In this document: positions 4,714 to 55,724 of the stretch, in pieces | Layout of the letters: each line of letters opens with the position of its first letter | Position numbering within the stretch: position 1 is the stretch's first letter | Assembly: GCF_011045215.1 (NCBI RefSeq) | Contig: NZ_CP049201.1 | DNA: 64,000 nucleotides | Reading direction: 5' to 3' (one strand) | Source of the DNA: Escherichia coli | GTDB lineage: Bacteria; Pseudomonadota; Gammaproteobacteria; Enterobacterales; Enterobacteriaceae | Translations under genes and position numbers: made by a program | Notes under the pieces: model-generated | Database searches by the model: none | Told to the model about the DNA's origin: nothing | Seen by the model: only the letters and a program-made list of their open reading frames with translations

Positions 4714-5279
4714 TATGTATTCCCTTGTGATTATAATCTTCATGAATATATCAATAAGTGCCGTTATCCAAAAAAAAAGCACATTTGGATACTATTCTAT
4801 GAAGTTCATTTTATTTTAAAGATTACATGTAACAAATGTATTTAAAAGATTTCAAAATGCTTCTAATCTATTTAATATAATTCAGAATTATGAATTCTAA
4901 ATATAAACATTCATGAAAATTATAAATGTATATCAATATATTATGAGTTGAATGGAAAGATAGGGAGTATCAATGATTGTTGCGCCAAACGGCAGGCGTG
5001 ATCACGCGCACATTAATGAAGGTATAAAAAAAGCCGGCATCATGCCGGCCCAAAAAATATAAACAAGACGATAAAAGGCTAATAACGGGGTTATCATGAC
5101 ACAGAAATCAAAAAAGGTATAATTGTATTCAGTGCTAATATATTGTTTGGGTGAATTAATAAAACTATTACCAAGGATATAAATAAATCTTTATTGCTGT
5201 TTTTCCAGTAATTATTGCCGTTGCGCAAAATTTATCTATTTGTTCAAAAAATGATTGAGTCTCGACTGGCTCATCCAAT

Positions 5280-5645
5280 GTGGAAAAATGTGACTTTTAT
5301 CACATAATAGTACTAAGTCTGAATTTTCCGGGTTATCTCAAAATGGAATACGGTTCGACAAAGATGGAAGAGAGACTCTCTCGCAGCCCTGGCGGCAAAT
5401 TGGCTTTGTGGGCTTTCTATACATGGTGTGGCTATTTCGTCTGGGCAATGGCGCGTTACATCTGGGTGATGAGCCGGATCCCCGATGCCCCCGTGTCGGG
5501 ATTTGAAAGCGATTTAGGCTCTACCGCGGGAAAGTGGTTAGGGGCACTGGTCGGATTTTTATTTATGGCTCTGGTCGGGGCATTGTTAGGCAGCATTGCC
5601 TGGTACACCCGACCTCGTCCCGCACGTAGCAGACGCTATGAATAA
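5280..5645 (+). CDS. yedR: Small inner membrane protein (YedR-like)
   Basis: 121 aa ORF with two hydrophobic segments in the conserved position before yedJ; start codon uncertain. Confidence 0.6.
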   Translation: MEKCDFYHIIVLSLNFPGYLKMEYGSTKMEERLSRSPGGKLALWAFYTWCGYFVWAMARYIWVMSRIPDAPVSGFESDLGSTAGKWLGALVGFLFMALVGALLGSIAWYTRPRPARSRRYE

Positions 5646-5684
5646 AAACTGCTAAGGTGGCGACTCTTTGGCAACGGAGCGCGT

Positions 5685-6380
5685 ATGGACTTACAACACT
5701 GGCAGGCACAGTTCGAAAACTGGTTGAAAAACCATCATCAGCACCAGGACGCGGCCCATGACGTGTGTCATTTTCGCCGCGTCTGGGCTACGGCACAGAA
5801 GCTGGCGGCAGATGACGATGTCGATATGCTGGTGATTTTAACCGCCTGTTATTTTCACGATATTGTGAGCCTGGCGAAAAATCATCCGCAAAGGCAGCGT
5901 TCTTCAATCCTGGCGGCAGAAGAGACGCGTCGCCTGCTCCGTGAAGAGTTCGAGCAATTTCCGGCGGAGAAAATCGAGGCCGTTTGTCATGCCATTGCCG
6001 CTCACAGTTTCAGCGCGCAAATCGCCCCCTTAACAACGGAAGCTAAAATCGTCCAGGATGCGGATCGGCTGGAAGCCCTGGGGGCGATTGGCCTGGCGCG
6101 CGTGTTTGCCGTTTCAGGGGCATTGGGCGTGGCGCTGTTTGATGGTGAAGATCCGTTCGCACAGCATCGCCCGCTTGATGATAAACGCTACGCGCTGGAT
6201 CATTTCCAGACTAAGTTGCTGAAGCTACCGCAAACCATGCAAACCGCAAGAGGCAAGCAGCTGGCGCAGCACAACGCGCATTTTTTAGTCGAGTTTATGG
6301 CGAAGCTCAGTGCCGAACTGGCGGGGGAGAATGAAGGTGTCGATCACAAGGTGATAGATGCGTTTTCACCCGCGGGATAA
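5685..6380 (+). CDS. yedJ: HD-domain phosphohydrolase YedJ
   Basis: 231 aa; HD motif (CYFHDI); conserved position upstream of dcm. Confidence 0.88.
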
Positions 6381-6446
6381 GCGCGTGGCCCTAAATGGCT
6401 GTAATTATGTTAACCTGTCGGCCATCTCAGATGGCCGGTTAAATCT

Positions 6447-7865
6447 ATGCAGGAAAATATATCAGTAACCGATTCATACAGCACCGGGAATGCCGCACAG
6501 GCAATGCTGGAGAAACTGCTGCAAATTTATGATGTTAAAACGCTGGTGGCGCAGCTTAATGGTGTGGGTGAGAATCACTGGAGCGCGGCAATTTTAAAAC
6601 GTGCGCTGGCGAATGACTCGGCATGGCACCGTTTAAGTGAGAAAGAGTTCGCCCATCTGCAAACGTTGTTACCCAAACCACCGGCACATCATCCGCATTA
6701 TGCGTTTCGCTTTATCGATCTATTTGCCGGAATTGGCGGCATCCGTCGCGGTTTTGAATCGATTGGCGGACAATGCGTGTTTACCAGCGAATGGAACAAA
6801 CATGCGGTACGCACTTATAAAGCCAACCATTATTGCGATCCGGCGACGCATCATTTTAATGAAGATATCCGCGATATCACCCTCAGCCATAAAGAAGGCG
6901 TGAGTGATGAGGCGGTGGCGGAACATATTCGTCAACACATTCCTGAACACGATGTTTTACTGGCCGGTTTCCCTTGTCAGCCATTTTCGCTGGCTGGCGT
7001 ATCGAAAAAGAACTCGCTCGGGCGGGCGCACGGTTTTGCCTGCGATACTCAGGGCACGCTGTTCTTTGATGTGGTGCGCATTATCGACGCGCGTCGTCCG
7101 GCGATGTTTGTGCTCGAAAACGTCAAAAACCTGAAAAGCCACGACCAGGGTAAAACGTTCCGCATCATCATGCAGACGCTGGACGAACTGGGCTATGACG
7201 TGGCTGATGCAGAAGATAACGGGCCGGACGATCCGAAAATCATCGATGGTAAACATTTTCTGCCGCAGCACCGTGAACGCATCGTGCTGGTGGGTTTTCG
7301 TCGCGATCTTAATCTGAAAGCCGATTTTACTCTGCGTGATATCAGCGAATGTTTCCCTGCACAGCGAGTGACGCTGGCGCAGCTGTTGGACCCGATGGTC
7401 GAGGCGAAATATATCCTGACGCCGGTGCTGTGGAAGTACCTCTATCGATATGCGAAAAAACATCAGGCGCGCGGTAACGGCTTCGGTTATGGAATGGTTT
7501 ATCCGAACAATCCGCAAAGCGTCACGCGTACGCTGTCTGCGCGTTATTACAAAGATGGCGCGGAAATTTTAATCGATCGCGGCTGGGATATGGCCAAAGG
7601 TGAGAAAGACTTTGACGATCCGCTGAATCAGCAACATCGTCCACGTCGGTTAACGCCTCGGGAATGCGCGCGCTTAATGGGTTTTGAAGCGCCGGGAGAA
7701 GCGAAATTCCGCATTCCGGTTTCGGACACTCAGGCCTATCGCCAGTTCGGTAACTCGGTGGTCGTGCCGGTCTTTGCCGCGGTGGCAAAACTGCTTGAGC
7801 CAAAAATCAAACAGGCGGTGGCGTTGCGTCAGCAAGAGGCACAACATGGCCGACGTTCACGATAA
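6447..7865 (+). CDS. dcm: DNA cytosine-5 methyltransferase Dcm (CCWGG)
   Basis: 472 aa; FAGIGG SAM motif, PCQ catalytic motif, ENV motif. Confidence 0.95.
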
Positions 7866-10746: not shown

Positions 10747-13261
<2,515 letters not shown>

Positions 13262-13440
13262 TTACCAGGATGATTCTCAAAACAGCACAAATAATCAAAG
13301 ATGATTTTTTCGGGAGCGATCCCGTTGACGCCAGAGCCACCAAGGGGTGACGCACGTCACATTTCTATTCATAAGTAGCGTTAATCATTCATATCGCGAA
13401 TATTTTCTTGTCAGCGAAAAAAATTGCGGATAAGGTGATG

Positions 13441-13527
13441 AACACATCAGATTTCCTGGTGTAACGAATTTTTTAAGTGCTTCTTGCTTAAGCAAGTTTC
13501 ATCCCGCCCCCCTCAGGGTCGGGATTT
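13441..13527 (+). ncRNA. dsrA: DsrA small regulatory RNA (Hfq-dependent; rpoS activator / hns repressor)
   Basis: Sequence AACACATCAGATTTCCTGGTGTAACGAATTTTTTAAGTGCTTCTTGCTTAAGCAAGTTTC... matches DsrA as I recall it; ends in GC-rich hairpin plus T-run; lies between yedP and yodD. Confidence 0.85.
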
Positions 13528-13540
13528 TTTTATTGTGCAT

Positions 13541-13771
13541 TCAACGATTCACTTCAGAGACGCTGAAGTCATGAATATCCAGTTCGAAGGCATCCGCCAA
13601 TTCACGCCATGTATGATATTCACGTCCATCGACGCTAACGTGTTCAGAATCGTTCTGGCTGCGATGAACTATTTCATTGATCGCCGCCAGCAGGGCATCG
13701 ACATCGACGCTGACCTCACGTTTTGCGGTATCGCTGTACTCTTTTGCGGTTTTCATCATCTTTCCTCGCAA
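13541..13771 (-). CDS. yodD: Stress-induced small protein YodD
   Basis: 76 aa ORF in conserved position; true start may be an internal Met. Confidence 0.75.
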   Translation of the reverse strand: MRGKMMKTAKEYSDTAKREVSVDVDALLAAINEIVHRSQNDSEHVSVDGREYHTWRELADAFELDIHDFSVSEVNR

Positions 13772-49527: not shown

Positions 49528-49603
<76 letters not shown>

Positions 49604-49656
49604 GTTTAAAAGGCATCGGCGTCAGCGGATGTCTGGCTGAAAGGCCTGAAGAATTT

Positions 49657-49730
49657 GGCGCGTTAACAAAGCGGTTATGTAGCGGATTGCAAATCCGTCT
49701 AGTCCGGTTCGACTCCGGAACGCGCCTCCA
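49657..49730 (+). tRNA. cysT: tRNA-Cys (anticodon GCA)
   Basis: GGCGCGTTAACAAAGCGG...GATTGCAAATCC...CGCGCCTCCA. Confidence 0.92.
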
Positions 49731-49742
49731 CTTTCTTCCCGA

Positions 49743-49829
49743 GCCCGGATGGTGGAATCGGTAGACACAAGGGATTTAAAATCCCTCGGCGTTCGCGCTG
49801 TGCGGGTTCAAGTCCCGCTCCGGGTACCA
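49743..49829 (+). tRNA. leuZ: tRNA-Leu (anticodon TAA), long variable arm
   Basis: GCCCGGATGGTGGAATCGGTAGACACAAGGGATTTAAAATCCC...CCGGGTACCA. Confidence 0.92.
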
Positions 49830-49865
49830 TGGGAAAGATAAGAATAAAATCAAAGCAATAAGCAG

Positions 49866-49897
49866 TGTCGTGAAACCACCTTCGGGTGGTTTTTTTG
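49866..49897 (+). terminator. Rho-independent terminator of the tRNA operon
   Basis: aaaccaccttcgggtggttttttt. Confidence 0.7.
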
Positions 49898-49998
49898 TAT
49901 TTGTATTTTGAGCAATGGCGGTAGAGTGGCGGTGGTGTGGCGATATGCAGAAACAACAATGGTAGTGCACGTGCTGTTTAAGCTCTAAGGATGAAGCA

Positions 49999-50190
49999 GA
50001 ATTCTCCTGCAGCTCCTCCGTATTTCGCATAGTGAACCAAGACTTCGGTTAAACAAAATTTTTCTGGGATTTTTCCACTCGACTTCATTTTTCCTCCAGT
50101 CATCCACCAAAGGTACCTGCGCTAATCTATCTTTTTTAATCTGACAACATCCTGAGAAAAGGCAAATTCGTCAGATTTACTGTTTTTTCT
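49999..50190 (-). repeat. Degenerate hok/sok-like element lacking the hok ORF (paralogous to 50860-51230)
   Basis: Direct, ~70-75% similar blocks (ctccgtatttcgcatagtgaacc / cttcggttaaaca / ccaaaggtacctgcgctaatctatc / aggcaaattcgtcagatt) shared with the hok locus flanks; the ~120 bp carrying the hok CDS is absent. Confidence 0.55.
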
Positions 50191-50370
50191 ACTGCTTCGA
50201 ATGCCGATGTCTGCAGTACTGATAAGAGCTCTATCTCTTTGATATAGATCTTTTATTTGATGAATTGCTCGACATATTATCGTTATGACACCTTCTTGTT
50301 AAAGGTGTTGTACTCCACATCTCGATTTTATGATGTGGGTTATGATTGGTTAGTAATAGAGTGTATCGGT

Positions 50371-50652
50371 ATGCGATGTGGTTTATTAATGGCAATCTGC
50401 TTTTGTTTGGTATCTTTTAGTGGGTATGCAGCAACAGGAAAGTCTGATGTTCAGATCAAGAAAGAAATAATTAAAGAATCCATTGAATCATATCCAGGCA
50501 ATTGTGCGTGTCCTTATAATCATGCAAGGAATGGTAGTAGGTGTGGTGGACGCAGTGCATATAGCCGTACTGGAGGGTATGATGTGGTATGTTATGAGAG
50601 TGATGTTACTGATGAAATGATCCGGCAATGGAAGCAGGAGAATGCTGATTAA
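50371..50652 (+). CDS. Hypothetical small secreted Cys-rich protein
   Basis: ORF 50257..50652; likely start at ATG 50371 (MRCGLLMAICFCLVSFSGYAA signal-like N-terminus), ~70-aa mature part with four Cys; AT-rich; strong terminator downstream; family not recognised. Confidence 0.5.
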   Translation: MRCGLLMAICFCLVSFSGYAATGKSDVQIKKEIIKESIESYPGNCACPYNHARNGSRCGGRSAYSRTGGYDVVCYESDVTDEMIRQWKQENAD

Positions 50653-50730
50653 TTACTTTTGACTGGTTTGTTTTGCGAGCATTATGTGTGTTGTTAACGG
50701 TACCCTAGCTAAGTGAGAGTTCCAAAATAA

Positions 50731-50762
50731 AACCCGCAGTTTTTACGCTGCGGGTTTTATTG
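50731..50762 (+). terminator. Rho-independent terminator
   Basis: aaaacccgcagtttttacgctgcgggttttattgttt. Confidence 0.75.
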
Positions 50763-50843
50763 TTTCTGTCGATGGGATAGGGTGCCACTTCGGCCAGCCT
50801 TGGCAACCGATTGACGGGGGATTACTCCCCCGTCGCGGTTTCC

Positions 50844-50984
50844 TTACTGCTTACACTGTAAGAACGCCGCAAACTCCGCTCCCCAGAAGCTCATCCGTAT
50901 TTCACACAGCGAACCGTGCAGCATCCAGATGATGAGGATTACCGTCACGCAGAACGTGATGGCCGTAAGCGATTTTTGCGACAT
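50844..50984 (-). CDS. hok: Hok/Gef-family type I toxin (46 aa), below the ORF-track length cutoff
   Basis: Minus-strand translation MSQKSLTAITFCVTVILIIWMLHGSLCEIRMSFWGAEFAAFLQCKQ: single TM helix plus the Hok signature SLCEIR and AAFL tail (HokA-like). Confidence 0.8.
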   Translation of the reverse strand: MSQKSLTAITFCVTVILIIWMLHGSLCEIRMSFWGAEFAAFLQCKQ

Positions 50985-51165
50985 AGCGCTTGCTCCTTTT
51001 TAGGGGAGGCGCTAACCTATCACTTGCTAAGGTTAGATGGTTAGGGCCTCGGTTAAACAGGGATGTTTTCCGGGGCCTTTCCACATCTGGCCTTCGGGCA
51101 TACCCTCCGACCATCAGCCGAAAGGCACCCGCGCGTAATCTATCGTTTTTTTGTTGCTTCGGCAA
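50902..51165 (-). other. mok-like overlapping reading frame / hok mRNA leader; sok antisense RNA expected on + strand within ~51040-51120
   Basis: 87-codon frame overlapping the hok start in another frame, the arrangement of mok in hok/sok loci; sok position inferred, not demonstrated. Confidence 0.45.
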
Positions 51166-51174
51166 TTCTGCTCG

Positions 51175-51435
51175 TTAATTCTGAGGTAAAGGCAAACTCA
51201 TCTGATTGTTTCCCCTGTGTGACGTTGGCAGTTCATGCCACGGGATACCTTCTGAAGATCGAACGCCTGAGGTGTGTTTCGATGTGAATTTATGGAAAGC
51301 TTCCAGTGTTGAGAAGCATACGCCGCATTCCAGGTTGTTACACTGGTAATACTTTTGTCGGACGGTGTTTGAATCATTTTCCGGACGACTTGTGCGGATA
51401 CGGGCAGATGCGCCACAAAGCGGACAACGGAACAT
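51175..51435 (-). CDS. ogr: Ogr/Delta-family zinc-finger late transcription activator
   Basis: MFRCPLCG...ARIRTSR...YYQCNNLECG Cys4 pattern typical of P2 Ogr; AGGGAGG RBS. Confidence 0.85.
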   Translation of the reverse strand: MFRCPLCGASARIRTSRPENDSNTVRQKYYQCNNLECGVCFSTLEAFHKFTSKHTSGVRSSEGIPWHELPTSHRGNNQMSLPLPQN

Positions 51436-51611
51436 AGCAACCTCCCTTTAGGTGGTGCTATTCTAAATTTCATCAATGCAGATTCCAACTCCTTCCCACT
51501 TTAAGCGAAGGATGGTGATAAAGTCAGAAGATGTTAGATGAAATCTAAACGGGCGATAAGTTTTCCAATATTTGAATAACAACGTGGCAGGATTTTTGTT
51601 TATCAATTATC

Positions 51612-51629
51612 TTACACTTTTAAGTGTAA
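51612..51629. promoter_or_regulatory. Perfect palindrome TTACACTTTTAAGTGTAA (candidate operator) upstream of the cargo gene
   Basis: 8-bp inverted arms around a 2-bp centre, ~25-40 bp upstream of the cargo ORF start. Confidence 0.4.
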
Positions 51630-51654
51630 TAAATTTGTTAGTGATGACAATATT

Positions 51655-53077
51655 GTGAGAGGAGATTATCAATTGAAGATGGCAAAAAATAACAATGATA
51701 AAATGCGGGCAAAGTATAGGCCGTTCATAAATATATGGGAACATCTTCCTTCTGAGTTCAATGAACTCATCAAGACGTTAATGGTGCTGATACGGCAAGG
51801 GGAAAATGTGGGAGCTCAGCAAAGGGAGCTTGATTCCATCGAAAACTTCAAACACCTGTTAAGTGGATGGAAGCGGGCGCAAAGGATCATAGCTGATGAA
51901 CTCATTATCAGGCTTTCTCAAATCAAGGATCTGGAGTTAGAAAAGAATTGTGCCCATTCAAAAAAGGACTATGAAACAAAGAAGAAGTGTATACGCAATA
52001 TTGAAAGGACTAGACTAGAAATTAGGATTTTACGTAGGTGCATTGATTCAATTGTATGGGCGATATTCCGCAATGAACACTCGTCTATAAGACGTTTACC
52101 TATAAATAGAAATACTGACAATCTGACAATATTTAATATACATGATTCAATGGTGGTAGCAGATGAAATCAATGCTGATCCGATGGCTATAGCTGTTATC
52201 ACTGATATTACTACGTTTGTACATACTGGTGATTTACTTGCGTTAATACCTCAGCAAGGCATAACTTTAATTGAAATAAAAAGTGGTAAGAAAAATATAG
52301 AGTTTTCAAAGGCGGCTATGTTCTCAGTGCAAAGTAAATGTCTTCATTTTGATGAGATTTATAGAAAAGACCTTGATAAAAATGACTTGAAACACTATGA
52401 CAGAGCTAAGCGTCAACTTAAAAGAGCTCAAAATGTGATAGATGTCATTGAGACTGGTAAGGGATTTGATAACTTTTTTCAGTCTCAAGTAACAATTCAT
52501 GACAGAGATTTTTGTCCCGATTTTTATACAGATAAGATTATTGAGCTTTGGTATGAGATATATAACGGTAAAACTTGGGCGATTACTGACATTAATGATT
52601 GTTTATTCCTTGGGGCATATATTAATTCTAATATGGGTTTTTGCGGTTTTAATGGATGGATGGAGGTATCTAGAATATCGGGGAGAGTGGTTTAATATTC
52701 TTGATAGCTTTTCAGATGCTTTATCACGTCCATTTTTTAGTTTGAACCTACCTGATAAATTGCTTCTGGATATCATTAATGGCAATCTAATTGTTGTGCT
52801 GTGTTTCGATCATCGTCGTTTCGTAGAAAGAGCAAATAAAAAATACCCCGGGATTTATGAGTTATTGGATTTTCCATCTCCGAAGATTAATCCTATGAGT
52901 ATGCTTTCCATCAATGGGAAGGGGGTAGTTTCTAGTGTTGATGGACAGAGTGTTTTTATTGGAAATGGTTACGAAACTCGGATTATTTTTGATCAGCAAT
53001 ATCCAGATAGTCTGATTAAGTGGTCATACCATATGAGTGATCTCAAAAAAATATTGATAAAAAAAAGCGTAAAATGA
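51655..53077 (+). pseudogene. AT-rich prophage cargo gene of unknown family, apparently frameshifted (~470 aa if merged); PD-(D/E)xK-like motif
   Basis: ORFs 51655..52695 (frame 1) and 52499..53077 (frame 2) overlap; both have protein-like sequence outside the overlap; frame switch needed near the G-run at 52678-52690; motif VITDI...TGDLLAL...LIEIKSGKK. Confidence 0.55.
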
Positions 53078-53272
53078 AAAAGGAAACGCAAAGAAAAATA
53101 AAAGAGAAAAGAAAACGTAGCAGAAAACAATGCTTAAACTAACACATCTAATGCTTTAATTTGCTTTACTGTTACAATGTCCGCTTACTGGTACAGGGCG
53201 GACTGCCATATTAGATTTGGTTCTATCTCGTAAGAGTGGCCGTTCAGGTCTGCACTAATACATCTGAATGGT

Positions 53273-54382
53273 TCACTCTGTTTCTGCTATCCATTCCGGG
53301 ATTTTTGCTTCAAGCTCAAGCTGCGTGGTAAAGCCGCTGTTATCAATGGTGTGCTCGGCTTTTGCAATAATCCAGTCCTGATTATCAATCTCGCTTTTAA
53401 ATCCTGTTACCGTGCCATGCATTTCGGGGTAGAGTTCTGCGCGTCCGCGTGCCAGTGTGATGGAGAATGATGCGGCTCCGCGTTGTAGTTGTTGCCACTT
53501 TGCCGCCGCTGCGCGTCTTGCTGCCTGCTCGTTCTGATAAGTCTTGCGTAACACAAACACATTGCCTTCCGCGCCTTCCATATAATCACCTTCACGGCTG
53601 CTGCTTTTCTCTTTTTTCGGTTTTGGCGGTTTGCGGCGTTTCACGCTGACTTTTTTCTTTTTCCCGTAATTAAGATCAAGCCAGTAAGCGCGTACCCCCG
53701 TATACGCCTCGCGGTCAGCAATGCGGAACTGATGGCGATCGCCGCTGCTGCGTGTGATGGCGAACGAGGGCAACGGCTGGCCCTGTGCGTTCACGCCACC
53801 GCCGGGCATGATGAATAACAGATTACCGCTTTTTACCGTGGTGATTGCGCCCAGCATTTCCGCCATGCGCGTAAGGAAGGACATGTCACTTTCTTCGGTC
53901 TGGTCGGCGTGGTCGATTTCGATATCCATCAGCATTTCGCTGATTTGCGGTTTCAGACCGTACCGATGAGCGATGGCGGATACCACACGCTCAACGGTCA
54001 CATCATGCCAGGACATCTCACGTTTAACGTTAAATTCATCCCGAAAATCTGCGCTTCTGGCTGAAACAGTCAGCCTGTCCGGCGGTCCTTCGTGTGCGAT
54101 TTCATCAACAATGTAAGAGCCTTTTTCTGTCAGCGGTTCGCCTTTCCAGCCAATGAGAACCGTCAGGCGCGCGCCCCGTGGCGGTAGCCGCAACTGACCA
54201 TCCGCATCATCCAGCGTGATGGTGAGCTGGTCTGCCTCAAATCCCCGGTTGTCGGTCAGCGACAGGCTCATCAGGCGCTCTGCCACGCCGGACAGCGTTT
54301 TACCCTCCGCGAGAATATCAAAATCCGGCATTTTTACGGGGTCTGTGCCCTGACTGAGCAATTGCATGGTGGTGTCGGTCAT
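53273..54382 (-). CDS. P2 gpD-like tail protein (late control gene D homolog)
   Basis: Start at ATG 54382 (MTDTTMQLLSQ...) with GGGAGGG RBS; 369 aa; gpD-like. Confidence 0.8.
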   Translation of the reverse strand: MTDTTMQLLSQGTDPVKMPDFDILAEGKTLSGVAERLMSLSLTDNRGFEADQLTITLDDADGQLRLPPRGARLTVLIGWKGEPLTEKGSYIVDEIAHEGPPDRLTVSARSADFRDEFNVKREMSWHDVTVERVVSAIAHRYGLKPQISEMLMDIEIDHADQTEESDMSFLTRMAEMLGAITTVKSGNLLFIMPGGGVNAQGQPLPSFAITRSSGDRHQFRIADREAYTGVRAYWLDLNYGKKKKVSVKRRKPPKPKKEKSSSREGDYMEGAEGNVFVLRKTYQNEQAARRAAAAKWQQLQRGAASFSITLARGRAELYPEMHGTVTGFKSEIDNQDWIIAKAEHTIDNSGFTTQLELEAKIPEWIAETE

Positions 54383-54539
54383 CTGTTCCCTCCCTGTGCG
54401 GCATGGTCGCATGTGCGTGCGGAGGGGGTTACTGCTTTTTGTTGTCGCCGGGTCGGGAGAACGGCGCAGGGGTGAGATTACGCGCGTGGTGGGTGATGAT
54501 TGTTGCCGAATCATTTAACGGATACAAGGGGCTGAAGCT

Positions 54540-55724
54540 ATGAGTGAAACTCGTTTTCATGGTGCCCGTGTTACGGAAAATACCGACCTGGTAACAGCGA
54601 TTAACGATGTTGATTCCAGCGTTATCGGTATCGTGGCAACGGCGGATGATGCGGACGCGAAGCTGTTCCCGCTGAACAAGCCCACACTGCTGACCCGCGT
54701 CAATGACGTGCTGGGAAAATGCGGGACAACGGGGACGCTTTATCGTGCGCTTAAGGCCATCGCAGACCAGGTGAGCACAAAGGTGATCGTCGTTCGCGTG
54801 GCTGAACACAAAGAAGAAGACGGAAAAACGCAGGATCAACTGGTTATCGGTGGTTCTGAATCTGACGGCAGCTATACGGGGATGTATGCGCTGCTTGTTG
54901 CAGAGCAGGATGAAAGCATCGGATACCGTCCGCGTATTCTGGCCGCGCCGGAGCTGGACACGGAGGCGGTAACAAAATCCCTGTGCGTGATTGCGGGTAA
55001 ACTGCGCGCGTTTGTGTATGCCTCATGTCACGGCTGTAACACGATGGCTGAGGCGATTACCTACCGCCAGAAATTCAACGAACGTGAGGTGATGCTCTTA
55101 TGGCCGGACTTCATCGCCTACAACCCGAAAAGTGGCAAAAACGAAACGTTCCCCGCGCCTGCCTATGCGTGCGGCCTTCGTGCGTACATTGACCATGAGC
55201 AGGGATGGCACAAATCACTGTCCAACGTTCCGGTTAAAAATGTGCTGGGGATGTCGAGGCATGTGTTCTGGTCGTTGCAGGCCGAAGACAGCGATGCCAA
55301 CAGCCTCAACAACAAAGAAATCACGACCATTATTCGTCGCAACGGGTTCCGCTTCTGGGGCAACCGCACACCGGAAACGAACGCCTACATCTTTGAGGTG
55401 TATACCCGAACCGCACAGGTGCTGGCTGATTCAATTGCGGAAGCGCAGTTTGAAACCATCGACAGTCCATTAACACCCGCGAACGTGAAGGATGTTATCA
55501 GTGCCATCAGGGCAAAACTGGATTCGCTGGTTACTGCCGGGAAACTGATAGGCGCGGAGTGCTGGTATGACGTGGTGGATAACAGCACCACGGATTTACG
55601 TCAGGGACGTGTGCGTATTCGCTACAAATATACGCCCGTTCCGCCACTGGAAGACATGGAGCTTTACCAGACGTTTACTGATGAATACTTTGAACCCGCA
55701 TTTGCGGTGCTGGGAGGTGCCTGA
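54540..55724 (+). CDS. P2 FI-like contractile tail sheath protein
   Basis: 394 aa; blocks shared with P2 FI (FPLNKP, LRAF, WPDF, EQGWHK.LSNV, IRRNGFRFWGNRT, YTPVPPLE). Confidence 0.9.
   Translation: MSETRFHGARVTENTDLVTAINDVDSSVIGIVATADDADAKLFPLNKPTLLTRVNDVLGKCGTTGTLYRALKAIADQVSTKVIVVRVAEHKEEDGKTQDQLVIGGSESDGSYTGMYALLVAEQDESIGYRPRILAAPELDTEAVTKSLCVIAGKLRAFVYASCHGCNTMAEAITYRQKFNEREVMLLWPDFIAYNPKSGKNETFPAPAYACGLRAYIDHEQGWHKSLSNVPVKNVLGMSRHVFWSLQAEDSDANSLNNKEITTIIRRNGFRFWGNRTPETNAYIFEVYTRTAQVLADSIAEAQFETIDSPLTPANVKDVISAIRAKLDSLVTAGKLIGAECWYDVVDNSTTDLRQGRVRIRYKYTPVPPLEDMELYQTFTDEYFEPAFAVLGGA

What the first reader, a model, noticed from the sequence alone, without database searches (positions are those of the whole stretch)
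50257..50762. AT-rich orphan ORF for a small secreted Cys-rich protein between the two hok-like elements
ORF with a signal-peptide-like N-terminus (MRCGLLMAICFCLVSFSGYAA) and a ~70-aa mature region with four cysteines (…YPGNCACPYNHARNGSRCGGRSAYSRTGGYDVVCYESDVTDEMIRQWKQENAD), followed by a strong intrinsic terminator (50731-50762). It lies in the island between leuZ and the prophage and has low GC. I do not recognise the family.
Basis: partly seen in the sequence, partly recalled or inferred. Interest (0 to 1): 0.45.

Follow-up and report, generated by a model that had tools for sequence, protein, structure and literature searches.

The report
Prophage gene for small exported protein
This is a real, conserved gene carried as cargo at the edge of a P2-like prophage in E. 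coli; it encodes an 8-kDa exported, cysteine-bridged protein of a large family that nobody has characterised, and whose relatives sit next to, or are fused to, secreted DNA-cutting enzymes.

Summary

It is not between leuZ and the prophage. In a 99.6%-identical strain, a 124-bp att repeat places it inside the P2-like prophage, in a variable slot next to attL. Sakai annotates it as ECs_2649 within prophage Sp13, and Salmonella has an ortholog at the same place.

The new lead is an association with nucleases. In 13 of 85 distinct contexts, an exported nuclease of one of four unrelated families lies nearby (six within 100 nt on the same strand). Three family representatives are fused to SNase, and about 18 to peptidoglycan-binding domains. 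My best guess (about 0.4) is an extracytoplasmic polyanion- or nucleic-acid-binding module that works with periplasmic nucleases. Nothing has been tested experimentally.

The parts
49743..49829 (+). tRNA-Leu (leuZ, anticodon TAA), the integration target
   Evidence: ARAGORN; Rfam tRNA.
49775..49898 (.). attL: left copy of a 124-bp direct repeat (3' half of leuZ plus its terminator) that bounds the P2-like prophage. attR lies beyond the end of the window.
   Evidence: A 100%-identical 124-bp repeat lies at L004 279-402 and 36782-36905 in strain 14EC001. That strain is 99.6% identical to the window over 49700-54600. Window coordinates were obtained by offset and checked against the sequence.
49975..50200 (-). 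Degenerate hok/sok-like remnant. It keeps the C-terminal half of Hok (..GSLCEIR..) with a frameshift, lacks the transmembrane half, and shows patchy similarity to the sok/mok leader.
   Evidence: ORF translations; blastn patches; pairwise alignment with the intact locus. The boundaries are approximate.
50371..50652 (+). CDS of the 93-aa precursor, including the stop codon. This is the gene in question (= WP_071589622.1 family, UniProt A0A6D0M0N0, Sakai ECs_2649 allele).
   Evidence: purifying selection.
50371..50430 (+). Predicted Sec signal peptide MRCGLLMAICFCLVSFSGYA, with cleavage after G-Y-A by the -3/-1 rule
   Evidence: Sequence inspection. Hydropathy is 2.3 over residues 4-17, and 174 of 181 single-domain relatives have a hydrophobic segment before the domain. 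No SignalP was available.
50431..50649 (+). Mature 73-aa protein (8.1 kDa, pI 5.8). It has an N-terminal helix, a loop-rich core YPGNCACPYNHARNGSRCGGRSAYSRTGGYDVVCY with four conserved Cys (C45, C47, C58, C74 of the precursor), and a C-terminal helix.
   Evidence: Alignments; AlphaFold model with pLDDT 86.8 and pTM 0.73; mean core net charge of +3.8 across the family.
50726..50761 (.). Intrinsic terminator hairpin: a 15-bp stem flanked by an A run and a T run. It could terminate both the gene (+) and the convergent hok transcript (-).
   Evidence: The bidirectional use is inferred from the flanking A/T runs. Similarity to phage P88/Chuche DNA starts here, at window 50724-50776.
50844..50984 (-). 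Intact hok/gef-family toxin gene (46 aa), the neighbour on the prophage side
   Evidence: PGAP 'Hok/Gef family protein' in strains 14EC001 and E2865. The sok-like RNA region at 50996-51130 scores 40.7 bits, below Rfam gathering.
51175..51435 (-). ogr/delta-like zinc-finger late activator of the P2-like prophage
   Evidence: 93-94% DNA identity to phages P88, Chuche and Xuanwuvirus.

Best explanation
The gene encodes a Sec-exported protein of about 8 kDa, probably held together by two disulfides. It is carried as a self-contained cargo ('moron') cassette in the variable slot between attL and hok/ogr of a P2-like (P88/Xuanwuvirus-type) prophage integrated in leuZ. The protein is one copy of a widespread, uncharacterised extracytoplasmic domain with the signature YPGNC-x-CPYN-x3-NGS-x-CG-x-RSAYS-x3-GG-x5-CY.

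I infer that the domain is a small binding module for an anionic polymer in the cell envelope, most likely nucleic acid. It would work alongside periplasmic or secreted non-specific nucleases. In the lysogen it would act on DNA that reaches the periplasm, as a barrier to incoming DNA, possibly together with the host's own periplasmic EndA.

Shown here: the gene, its conservation, the export signal, its prophage location, and the family-wide fusions and gene neighbourhoods. Inferred: disulfide formation, the ligand, and the physiological role.
For: Gene reality and selection.

Inside the prophage: the att repeat, the Sakai Sp13 annotation, and the same position in Salmonella.

Variable cargo slot: related isolated phages share hok and ogr at 93-94% identity but lack this gene. 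Phage Chuche carries a com/mom-type methyltransferase in that slot.

Export: a signal peptide here, and a hydrophobic N-terminus in 174 of 181 single-domain relatives.

Binding-module behaviour:
- Tandem duplications (P0121, P0123, P0128, P0241).
- Among 50 long relatives, fusions to SH3_3 (15), PG_binding_1 (3) and SNase (3, in both domain orders).
- An Excalibur-like stretch seen by eye in the fusion protein P0155.

Nuclease link:
- 13 of 85 distinct family contexts have an exported-type nuclease gene in the locus, and 6 have one within 100 nt on the same strand.
- Four unrelated families are involved, confirmed by Pfam or NCBIfam: SNase, Endonuclease_NS, Endonuclease I and PLD/NucT. Gaps are as small as 1-8 nt.
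- In related viral contigs L057, L065, L071 and L073, close homologues of the protein keep their position while the nuclease family is swapped. This points to a link through the substrate or process rather than through one enzyme fold.
- In L057 and L065 the gene directly follows a gene with a weak, sub-cutoff S24-type match (NCBIfam E about 1e-5; GDSMxPT-like motif by eye in L057). If that is a prophage repressor, it suggests expression in the lysogen.

Charge: the conserved core is basic (mean net charge +3.8, sd 0.9, over 35 residues) with invariant Arg, Tyr and Ser and nearly invariant Asn.
Against: - There is no direct evidence of nucleic-acid binding, and the predicted fold resembles no known DNA-binding fold.
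- About 85% of contexts have no nuclease nearby. This includes the present prophage and the conserved Acinetobacter locus downstream of cysDN.
- Fusions to peptidoglycan-binding domains outnumber fusions to nucleases, which fits a cell-wall ligand equally well.
- The whole mature E. coli protein is slightly acidic (pI 5.8).
- The background frequency of nuclease genes was estimated from general knowledge, not measured.
- No sigma-70 consensus promoter was found upstream on the + strand.
- No expression data could be found.
Confidence: 0.4

Rival explanations
1. The domain is a cell-envelope anchor. It binds peptidoglycan or another envelope polymer and serves to retain itself or its partners, including nucleases, at the cell wall. 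The free-standing prophage version would modify the envelope of the lysogen, for example by masking a receptor or protecting peptidoglycan from phage or host hydrolases.
For: - The most frequent fusion partners are peptidoglycan-binding domains: SH3_3 in 15 and PG_binding_1 in 3 of 50 long relatives.
- Phage lipoprotein relatives carry the core motif at the end of a membrane-anchored protein (phrog_14503 'membrane associated protein').
- The basic core could bind peptidoglycan or LPS anions.
Against: - Known wall-binding domains are usually fused to an effector rather than to a second wall binder.
- Separately encoded nucleases would not be anchored unless the protein also bound them.
- This does not explain why four different nuclease families are its operon neighbours.
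Confidence: 0.2
2. The protein is a periplasmic regulator or inhibitor of nucleases. It would keep exported nucleases inactive in transit, or blunt host periplasmic nucleases.
For: - Tight, sometimes translationally coupled pairing with nuclease genes, with gaps of 1-8 nt. This arrangement resembles toxin-immunity pairs.
Against: - The partners belong to four structurally unrelated nuclease families, which is unlikely for a protein inhibitor.
- Covalent fusions to SNase occur in both orders.
- The periplasm holds no DNA of the cell's own to protect.
- The core is basic, so it is not a DNA mimic.
- Most family members have no nuclease nearby.
Confidence: 0.1
3. The four cysteines form a metal site or a redox-active CxC centre. 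The protein would be a periplasmic metal-binding or thiol-disulfide protein.
For: - Cys45, Cys58 and Cys74 are invariant and Cys47 nearly so, and they include a CxC pair.
- The domain co-occurs with the Ca-binding Excalibur domain. Excalibur is a Pfam hit in one neighbouring protein, and there is an Excalibur-like stretch by eye in the fusion protein P0155.
Against: - No conserved His, Asp or Glu ligands apart from one Asp.
- In the oxidising periplasm, four Cys are expected to form structural disulfides.
- The phage lipoprotein relatives keep only two of the four Cys yet retain the CG-x-RSAYSRPGG core. The conserved function therefore seems to lie in the basic loop rather than in a Cys4 site.
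Confidence: 0.08
4. It is a secreted toxin, bacteriocin or virulence factor. Some database entries for relatives are labelled 'hemolysin'.
For: - Small, exported, Cys-rich and prophage-borne.
- A few AFDB relatives are named 'Hemolysin' or 'Exported protein'.
Against: - No immunity or export partner is conserved next to it.
- The family is common in non-pathogenic soil and water bacteria.
- The 'hemolysin' labels are unreviewed, and no Pfam or NCBIfam toxin model matches.
Confidence: 0.05
5. It is a decaying or non-functional ORF that is simply carried along with the prophage.
For: - It sits next to a degenerate hok remnant.
- No consensus promoter was found and the Shine-Dalgarno is weak.
- There is no published expression evidence.
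Against: - The frame is intact in hundreds of genomes.
- dN/dS is 0.17, and there is strong conservation against Salmonella despite saturated synonymous sites.
- Three Cys and about ten other positions are invariant, and the fourth Cys nearly so, across distant taxa.
Confidence: 0.03

Closest known systems
PHROG phrog_27544 (unknown function), with distant relatives phrog_14503 ('membrane associated protein', moron category) and phrog_3117
   Same: Direct profile match over residues 13-93 (E = 1.6e-59). The core residues 37-70 match the other two PHROGs (E about 1e-6 to 1e-7).
   Different: These PHROGs carry no tested function, so membership names the protein but does not explain it.
Excalibur domain (Pfam PF05901): a small extracellular Cys-containing accessory domain often fused to staphylococcal-type nucleases (from my own knowledge of the family)
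   Same: A small, exported accessory module found alone, repeated, or fused to SNase. One neighbouring protein contains Excalibur, and the fusion protein P0155 has an Excalibur-like stretch by eye.
   Different: There is no sequence match. The acidic DxDxDGxxCE calcium loop is absent. The conserved core here is basic, so a calcium-binding role is unlikely.
ComEA-type periplasmic DNA-binding proteins of competent bacteria (from my own knowledge)
   Same: The proposed mode of action: a small exported protein that binds DNA in the periplasm.
   Different: ComEA uses helix-hairpin-helix motifs. There is no sequence or fold similarity here. DNA binding by this family is untested.
Lysogenic-conversion 'morons' of temperate phages, such as P2 old, tin and Z/fun, or lambda rexAB expressed with cI (from my own knowledge)
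   Same: An AT-rich, self-terminated cassette inside an att-bounded prophage, absent from close phage relatives, in a slot that holds other cargo elsewhere. In other phage contigs, homologues directly follow a gene with a weak S24-type match.
   Different: The slot (attL to hok/ogr) is not one of the classical P2 cargo sites. The product is periplasmic, whereas Old, Tin and Rex act in the cytoplasm or inner membrane. No exclusion phenotype is known.
Pfam DUF3761 and DUF2282, labels attached to a few relatives in UniProt/AFDB
   Same: Small exported Cys-containing bacterial proteins. Some family members carry these names in AFDB.
   Different: Neither Pfam model matches this protein, even at E <= 10. 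The labels appear to be loose automatic annotation.

Membership tests
PHROG phrog_27544 | Significant full-length match to the family profile HMM | tested here: met
   E = 1.6e-59, 199 bits, residues 13-93 against profile positions 1-81 of 81.
Sec-exported (periplasmic) protein | N-terminal signal peptide with a positive n-region, a hydrophobic h-region and small residues at -3/-1 | tested here: met
   M-R, then 14 hydrophobic residues (hydropathy 2.3), then G-Y-A before the cleavage site. 174 of 181 single-domain relatives have an equivalent hydrophobic segment. This was a heuristic test; SignalP was not available.
Sec-exported (periplasmic) protein | Experimentally shown export and signal-peptide cleavage | not testable with these tools
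   This needs PhoA fusions, fractionation or N-terminal sequencing.
Lipoprotein | Lipobox [LVI][ASTVI][GAS]C at the end of the signal peptide | tested here: not met
   The Cys residues in the signal peptide (C3, C10, C12) are not preceded by a lipobox and are not conserved in relatives.
Prophage moron / cargo cassette | Lies inside the att-bounded prophage | tested here: met
   A 124-bp perfect repeat bounds the element in strain 14EC001, which is 99.6% identical over 49700-54600. The gene lies between attL and hok/ogr. attR is outside the window. Sakai places the gene in Sp13.
Prophage moron / cargo cassette | Absent from closely related phages, with a variable slot | tested here: met
   P88, Chuche and Xuanwuvirus share hok and ogr at 93-94% identity, but similarity stops at window 50724-50776. 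tblastn against 50,697 phage records finds nothing. Chuche has com/mom-type genes in the slot.
Prophage moron / cargo cassette | Own promoter and terminator; atypical base composition | tested here: inconclusive
   The terminator is strong and GC is 36-42% against about 52%. No sigma-70 consensus promoter was found upstream on the + strand.
Pfam DUF3761 / DUF2282 | Match to the Pfam HMM | tested here: not met
   The Pfam-A scan returned only a sub-threshold Sclerostin hit (E = 0.009). DUF3761 and DUF2282 did not appear even at E <= 10.
Excalibur calcium-binding domain | Pfam PF05901 match; acidic DxDxDGxxCE loop | tested here: not met
   There is no Pfam hit. The conserved core has no acidic residues and a net charge of +3.8.
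Hok/Gef toxin | Single-pass membrane peptide of about 50 aa with the Hok motif; Pfam PF01848 | tested here: not met
   There is no Pfam hit. The protein is unrelated to the neighbouring hok.
Known disulfide-rich folds in the PDB (e.g. Kazal-type inhibitors, zinc ribbons) | Structural similarity of the model to a solved structure | tested here: not met
Anti-phage defence systems (PADLOC) | Match to a PADLOC model | tested here: not met
   0 families at E <= 1.
Nuclease-associated extracytoplasmic nucleic-acid-binding module (proposed here) | Recurrent fusion to, or operon pairing with, exported nucleases | tested here: met
   There are 3 SNase fusions. 13 of 85 contexts have SNase, Endonuclease_NS, Endonuclease I or PLD-NucT genes nearby, 6 of them within 100 nt on the same strand. 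This holds for the family, not for this E. coli locus, which has no nuclease neighbour.
Nuclease-associated extracytoplasmic nucleic-acid-binding module (proposed here) | Direct binding of DNA or RNA | not testable with these tools
   This needs EMSA or fluorescence anisotropy with purified oxidised protein.

The most novel reading that the evidence does not exclude
The family is a previously unrecognised periplasmic DNA-handling factor. Temperate phages, plasmids and chromosomes would deploy it, alone or paired with interchangeable periplasmic nucleases (SNase, Endonuclease_NS, EndA-like, NucT-like), as a barrier that captures and destroys DNA entering the periplasm by phage injection, conjugation or transformation. 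The E. coli/Salmonella P2-like prophage version would then be a lysogen-expressed exclusion factor that co-opts the host's EndA.
Probability: 0.15. Interest if true: 0.7.

Novelty: new variant of a known kind. Interest (0 to 1): 0.42.

Why it matters
About 15% of complete E. coli genomes carry this gene, including O157:H7 Sakai (ECs_2649). It is annotated only as 'hypothetical protein'. It represents a family of more than 2,000 sequence clusters with no Pfam model, no solved structure and a predicted fold without relatives.

The family-wide link to four unrelated exported nucleases and to wall-binding domains gives a first testable handle on its function. If it is a periplasmic nucleic-acid-binding or DNA-entry-barrier factor, it would add a new component to prophage-encoded protection of lysogens and to the biology of extracellular and periplasmic nucleases. 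If it is only a wall-binding tag, it is still a new small domain worth a Pfam entry. For this window, the practical results are the corrected gene start and the corrected prophage boundary.

Tried and rejected
- Pfam-A returned only a sub-threshold Sclerostin hit (E = 0.009). I regard this as a Cys-rich composition artefact.
- NCBIfam and PADLOC returned nothing.
- The PDB sequence-profile search returned nothing.
- tblastn against 50,697 deposited phage genomes found no match.
- Literature searches found nothing relevant. I searched accession numbers, ECs2649, DUF3761, motif strings, 'leuZ P2-like prophage', and secreted-nuclease partner proteins.
- I looked for a universally conserved neighbour and found none. 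Contexts differ between lineages.
- The conserved Acinetobacter position downstream of cysDN gave no functional clue that I could support.
- Kazal-like, zinc-ribbon or His-Me-finger readings of the Cys pattern are rejected. There is no profile or fold match, and no conserved His, Asp or Glu.
- The 130/131-aa reading from ATG 50260 or TTG 50257, used by some metagenome gene callers, is rejected because the extension is not conserved.
- The Rfam Thr_leader sub-threshold hits at 50694-50780 are just the terminator hairpin.

Full report
**What is there.** The window is E. coli chromosome: uvrC, pgsA, then glyW-cysT-leuZ (49528-49829), followed by phage genes. The longest ORF at the finding runs 50257-50652 (TTG start, 131 aa).

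PGAP annotates a 93-aa CDS starting at the internal ATG (window 50371) as 'hypothetical protein' in other strains. I favour that start for three reasons:
- The 37-38 upstream codons are unrelated to what precedes the Salmonella ortholog.
- Throughout the family, the conserved domain is preceded directly by a signal peptide.
- Salmonella has a GAGG Shine-Dalgarno 9 nt before the equivalent ATG. The E. coli one is weak.

The precursor begins M-R, followed by 14 hydrophobic residues and G-Y-A. The -3/-1 rule gives a 20-residue signal peptide and a 73-residue mature protein (8.1 kDa, pI 5.8). GC is 36-42% against about 52% around it. A 15-bp hairpin with a T tail at 50726-50761 folds at -26.1 kcal/mol, z = -5.5. 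Its flanking A and T runs suggest that it also serves the convergent hok transcript; that is an inference.

**It is a real gene under selection.**
- The DNA is present in 813 of 5,426 complete E. coli genomes, and 572 of them cover at least 80% of the 601-bp query.
- The exact protein is on record on 739 contigs. The commoner allele, identical to O157:H7 Sakai ECs_2649, is on at least 1,000.
- Between the two E. coli alleles there are 7 synonymous and 5 non-synonymous differences, giving dN/dS of 0.17.
- Against the Salmonella ortholog, synonymous sites are saturated (50 of 58) while dN is 0.39.

**Where it lies.** In strain 14EC001, which is 99.6% identical to the window over 49700-54600, a perfect 124-bp direct repeat occurs twice. 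The repeat comprises the 3' half of leuZ plus its terminator. One copy is at leuZ. The other is 36.5 kb away, just past a phage integrase next to yecA.

In window coordinates, attL is 49775-49898. attR lies beyond the window end. The gene is therefore inside the P2-like prophage, in the order: attL, degenerate hok/sok remnant (about 49975-50200), the gene, terminator, intact hok (50844-50984), ogr (51175-51435). The Sakai annotation agrees, with ECs_2649 inside 'prophage Sp13, P2-like'. Salmonella enterica has a 58-67% identical ortholog at the same place: pgsA, tRNAs, gene, hok, hok, ogr, gpD.

Isolated relatives (P88, Chuche, Xuanwuvirus P884B11) share hok and ogr at 93-94% DNA identity, but the similarity stops at window 50724-50776. 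The protein finds nothing by tblastn in 50,697 deposited phage genomes. Chuche has com/mom-type methyltransferase genes in the same slot. So the gene is variable cargo, a moron, in an att-proximal slot.

**It is not an orphan.**
- A word-indexed search gave 181 relatives, all unnamed.
- A profile of 72 mature domains, searched against 1.84 billion representatives, gave 2,279 hits at E <= 1e-3 and 1,430 at E <= 1e-10.
- GTDB genomes gave 199 confirmed hits in Enterobacterales, Acinetobacter, Aeromonas, Pseudomonas, Xanthomonas, Sphingomonas, Caulobacter, Geobacterales and others.
- IMG/VR gave 83 hits.
- The invariant or nearly invariant positions give the signature S-x3-YPGNC-x-CPYN-x2-RNGS-x-CG-x-RSAYS-x2-GG-x4-CY-x2-DV. 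Three of the four Cys are invariant and the fourth nearly so.
- No Pfam, NCBIfam, PADLOC or PDB sequence relative exists. The only named hit is PHROG phrog_27544, of unknown function.
- AlphaFold2 with the family alignment gives a confident model (pLDDT 86.8, pTM 0.73): an N-terminal helix, a loop-rich Cys core and a C-terminal helix.

**Clues to function.** Most members are single-domain and 85-135 aa long. 174 of 181 have a hydrophobic N-terminal segment.

Among the 50 longer representatives scanned, taken from the 147 new representatives in the top-150 list, the domain is fused to:
- bacterial SH3_3 (15 at E <= 0.001);
- PG_binding_1 (3);
- staphylococcal-type nuclease (3, with the nuclease on either side).

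Tandem duplications also occur. A set of phage lipoproteins ends in a truncated core, GNCQYDWQRDAAGNRCGRRSAYSRPGGY. These are the habits of an extracytoplasmic binding module.

Gene neighbourhoods add a specific lead. Pfam and NCBIfam confirm four unrelated families: SNase, Endonuclease_NS, Endonuclease I (deoxyribonuclease I, E = 1.7e-54) and PLD-type NucT-like. Gaps can be 1-8 nt.

In four related viral contigs, close homologues of the protein keep their place while the nuclease changes:
- L057: EndA-like.
- L065: NucT-like.
- L071: SNase upstream and NucT-like downstream.
- L073: Endonuclease_NS.

In L057 and L065 the gene directly follows a gene with a weak, sub-cutoff S24-type match (NCBIfam E about 1e-5; a GDSMxPT-like motif by eye in L057). 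If that gene is a prophage repressor, this suggests expression in the lysogen.

From general knowledge, a proteobacterial genome holds only a few such nuclease genes per several thousand. Six immediate neighbours in 85 contexts is therefore far above expectation. I did not measure the background. The conserved 35-residue core is basic (mean net charge +3.8, sd 0.9), whereas the flanking helices are neutral.

**Interpretation.** Partners from four different nuclease folds argue against a fold-specific inhibitor. They point instead to a link through the shared substrate or process. With the basic core, the tandem repeats and the covalent SNase fusions, the best-supported reading is a small exported module that binds an anionic polymer. 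Nucleic acid is the leading candidate, acting with periplasmic or secreted nucleases.

In this prophage the protein stands alone. If the reading is right, it would act on DNA reaching the periplasm of the lysogen, perhaps with host EndA. I put this at about 0.4.

The main rival, at about 0.2, is a cell-wall or envelope anchor, favoured by the more numerous SH3 and PG-binding fusions. Other readings are less likely, for the reasons given under the rivals: nuclease inhibitor, metal or redox protein, toxin ('hemolysin' labels on a few AFDB entries), or dead ORF.

Against my reading:
- About 85% of contexts, including this one, have no nuclease nearby.
- The fold resembles no known DNA binder.
- No promoter consensus was found.
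- No expression or functional data exist in the searchable literature.

**Comparison with known things.** In behaviour the domain most resembles accessory domains of secreted nucleases such as Excalibur. It lacks the acidic calcium loop and has no sequence match. In proposed action it resembles periplasmic DNA binders such as ComEA, without any similarity in sequence or fold. As a genetic element it is an ordinary prophage moron. By profile match it belongs to phrog_27544. It fails the tests for DUF3761/DUF2282, Excalibur, Hok, lipoprotein, PADLOC systems and known disulfide-rich folds.

**Verdict.** The gene is already in databases as a hypothetical protein, so the object itself is not new. 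The family is uncharacterised and structurally unplaced, and the nuclease association is a concrete, testable lead. Interest is moderate (0.42).

Noticed in passing
window 51655-53077 (+): AT-rich (30-36% GC) cargo between ogr and gpD is split here into a 346-aa and a 192-aa ORF. In strain 14EC001 the same DNA encodes one 487-aa 'hypothetical protein' (WP_038820202.1). The alignment has 2 gap positions in 1,501 bases, so the window copy looks frameshifted. There is no PADLOC match.
   Followed up: partly
window ~49975-50200 (-): A degenerate hok/sok locus lies directly inside attL. The C-terminal half of Hok (GSLCEIR...) is kept with a frameshift, the transmembrane half is missing, and there are patches of the sok/mok leader. 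Salmonella instead has a sok-like remnant downstream of the gene and two intact hok copies (L008 6340-7351).
   Followed up: partly
L175 (O157:H7 Sakai) 12107-13685: In Sakai prophage Sp13, an IS30 element sits where hok and ogr are in the window, directly next to ECs_2649. The gene has been retained while its phage neighbours were lost.
   Followed up: no
L057, L065, L071, L073 (IMG/VR contigs), around 5200-7700: In related viral contigs, the family gene is followed or preceded by interchangeable exported nucleases: EndA-like, PLD NucT-like, SNase plus NucT-like, and Endonuclease_NS. In L057 and L065 the gene upstream has a weak S24-type match. This looks like a swappable 'periplasmic nuclease' cargo module.
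   Followed up: partly
L055, L108, L117, L130, L144 (directly upstream of the family gene); L173 (downstream): A second small exported protein recurs next to the family gene in Sphingomonas, Sphingobium, Geobacterales and a viral contig. Its motif is VRGYxRxDGTYVxPHxxTNPNxTxxDNWSTxGNxNPxTG. No NCBIfam match was found.
   Followed up: partly
L111, L122, L127, L131, L134, L138, L146, L149, L153, L158, L159, L163, L165, L166, L169, L172: In 16 Acinetobacter genome loci, the family gene sits 130-150 nt downstream of cysD-cysN on the same strand, in a conserved chromosomal neighbourhood. I could not tell whether this reflects co-regulation.
   Followed up: no
L051, L113, L120, L124 (gene overlapping the stop codon of the family gene): A 93-aa single-pass membrane protein (MSKTLKISTFIQDVITIIVISAVIIIG...) overlaps the stop codon of the family gene by 4 nt in three Acinetobacter loci and one viral contig. 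It may be another partner.
   Followed up: no
L011-L013 (metagenome contigs): One family member (P0034, indexed in 210 collection blocks) lies on a MobA/MobL-type mobilisable element next to ThiF and JAB-domain genes. So the family also travels on plasmids.
   Followed up: no
window 50694-50780, both strands: Sub-threshold Rfam Thr_leader hits (27-29 bits against a gathering score of 55). These are just the terminator hairpin with its A/T flanks, not a leader.
   Followed up: yes
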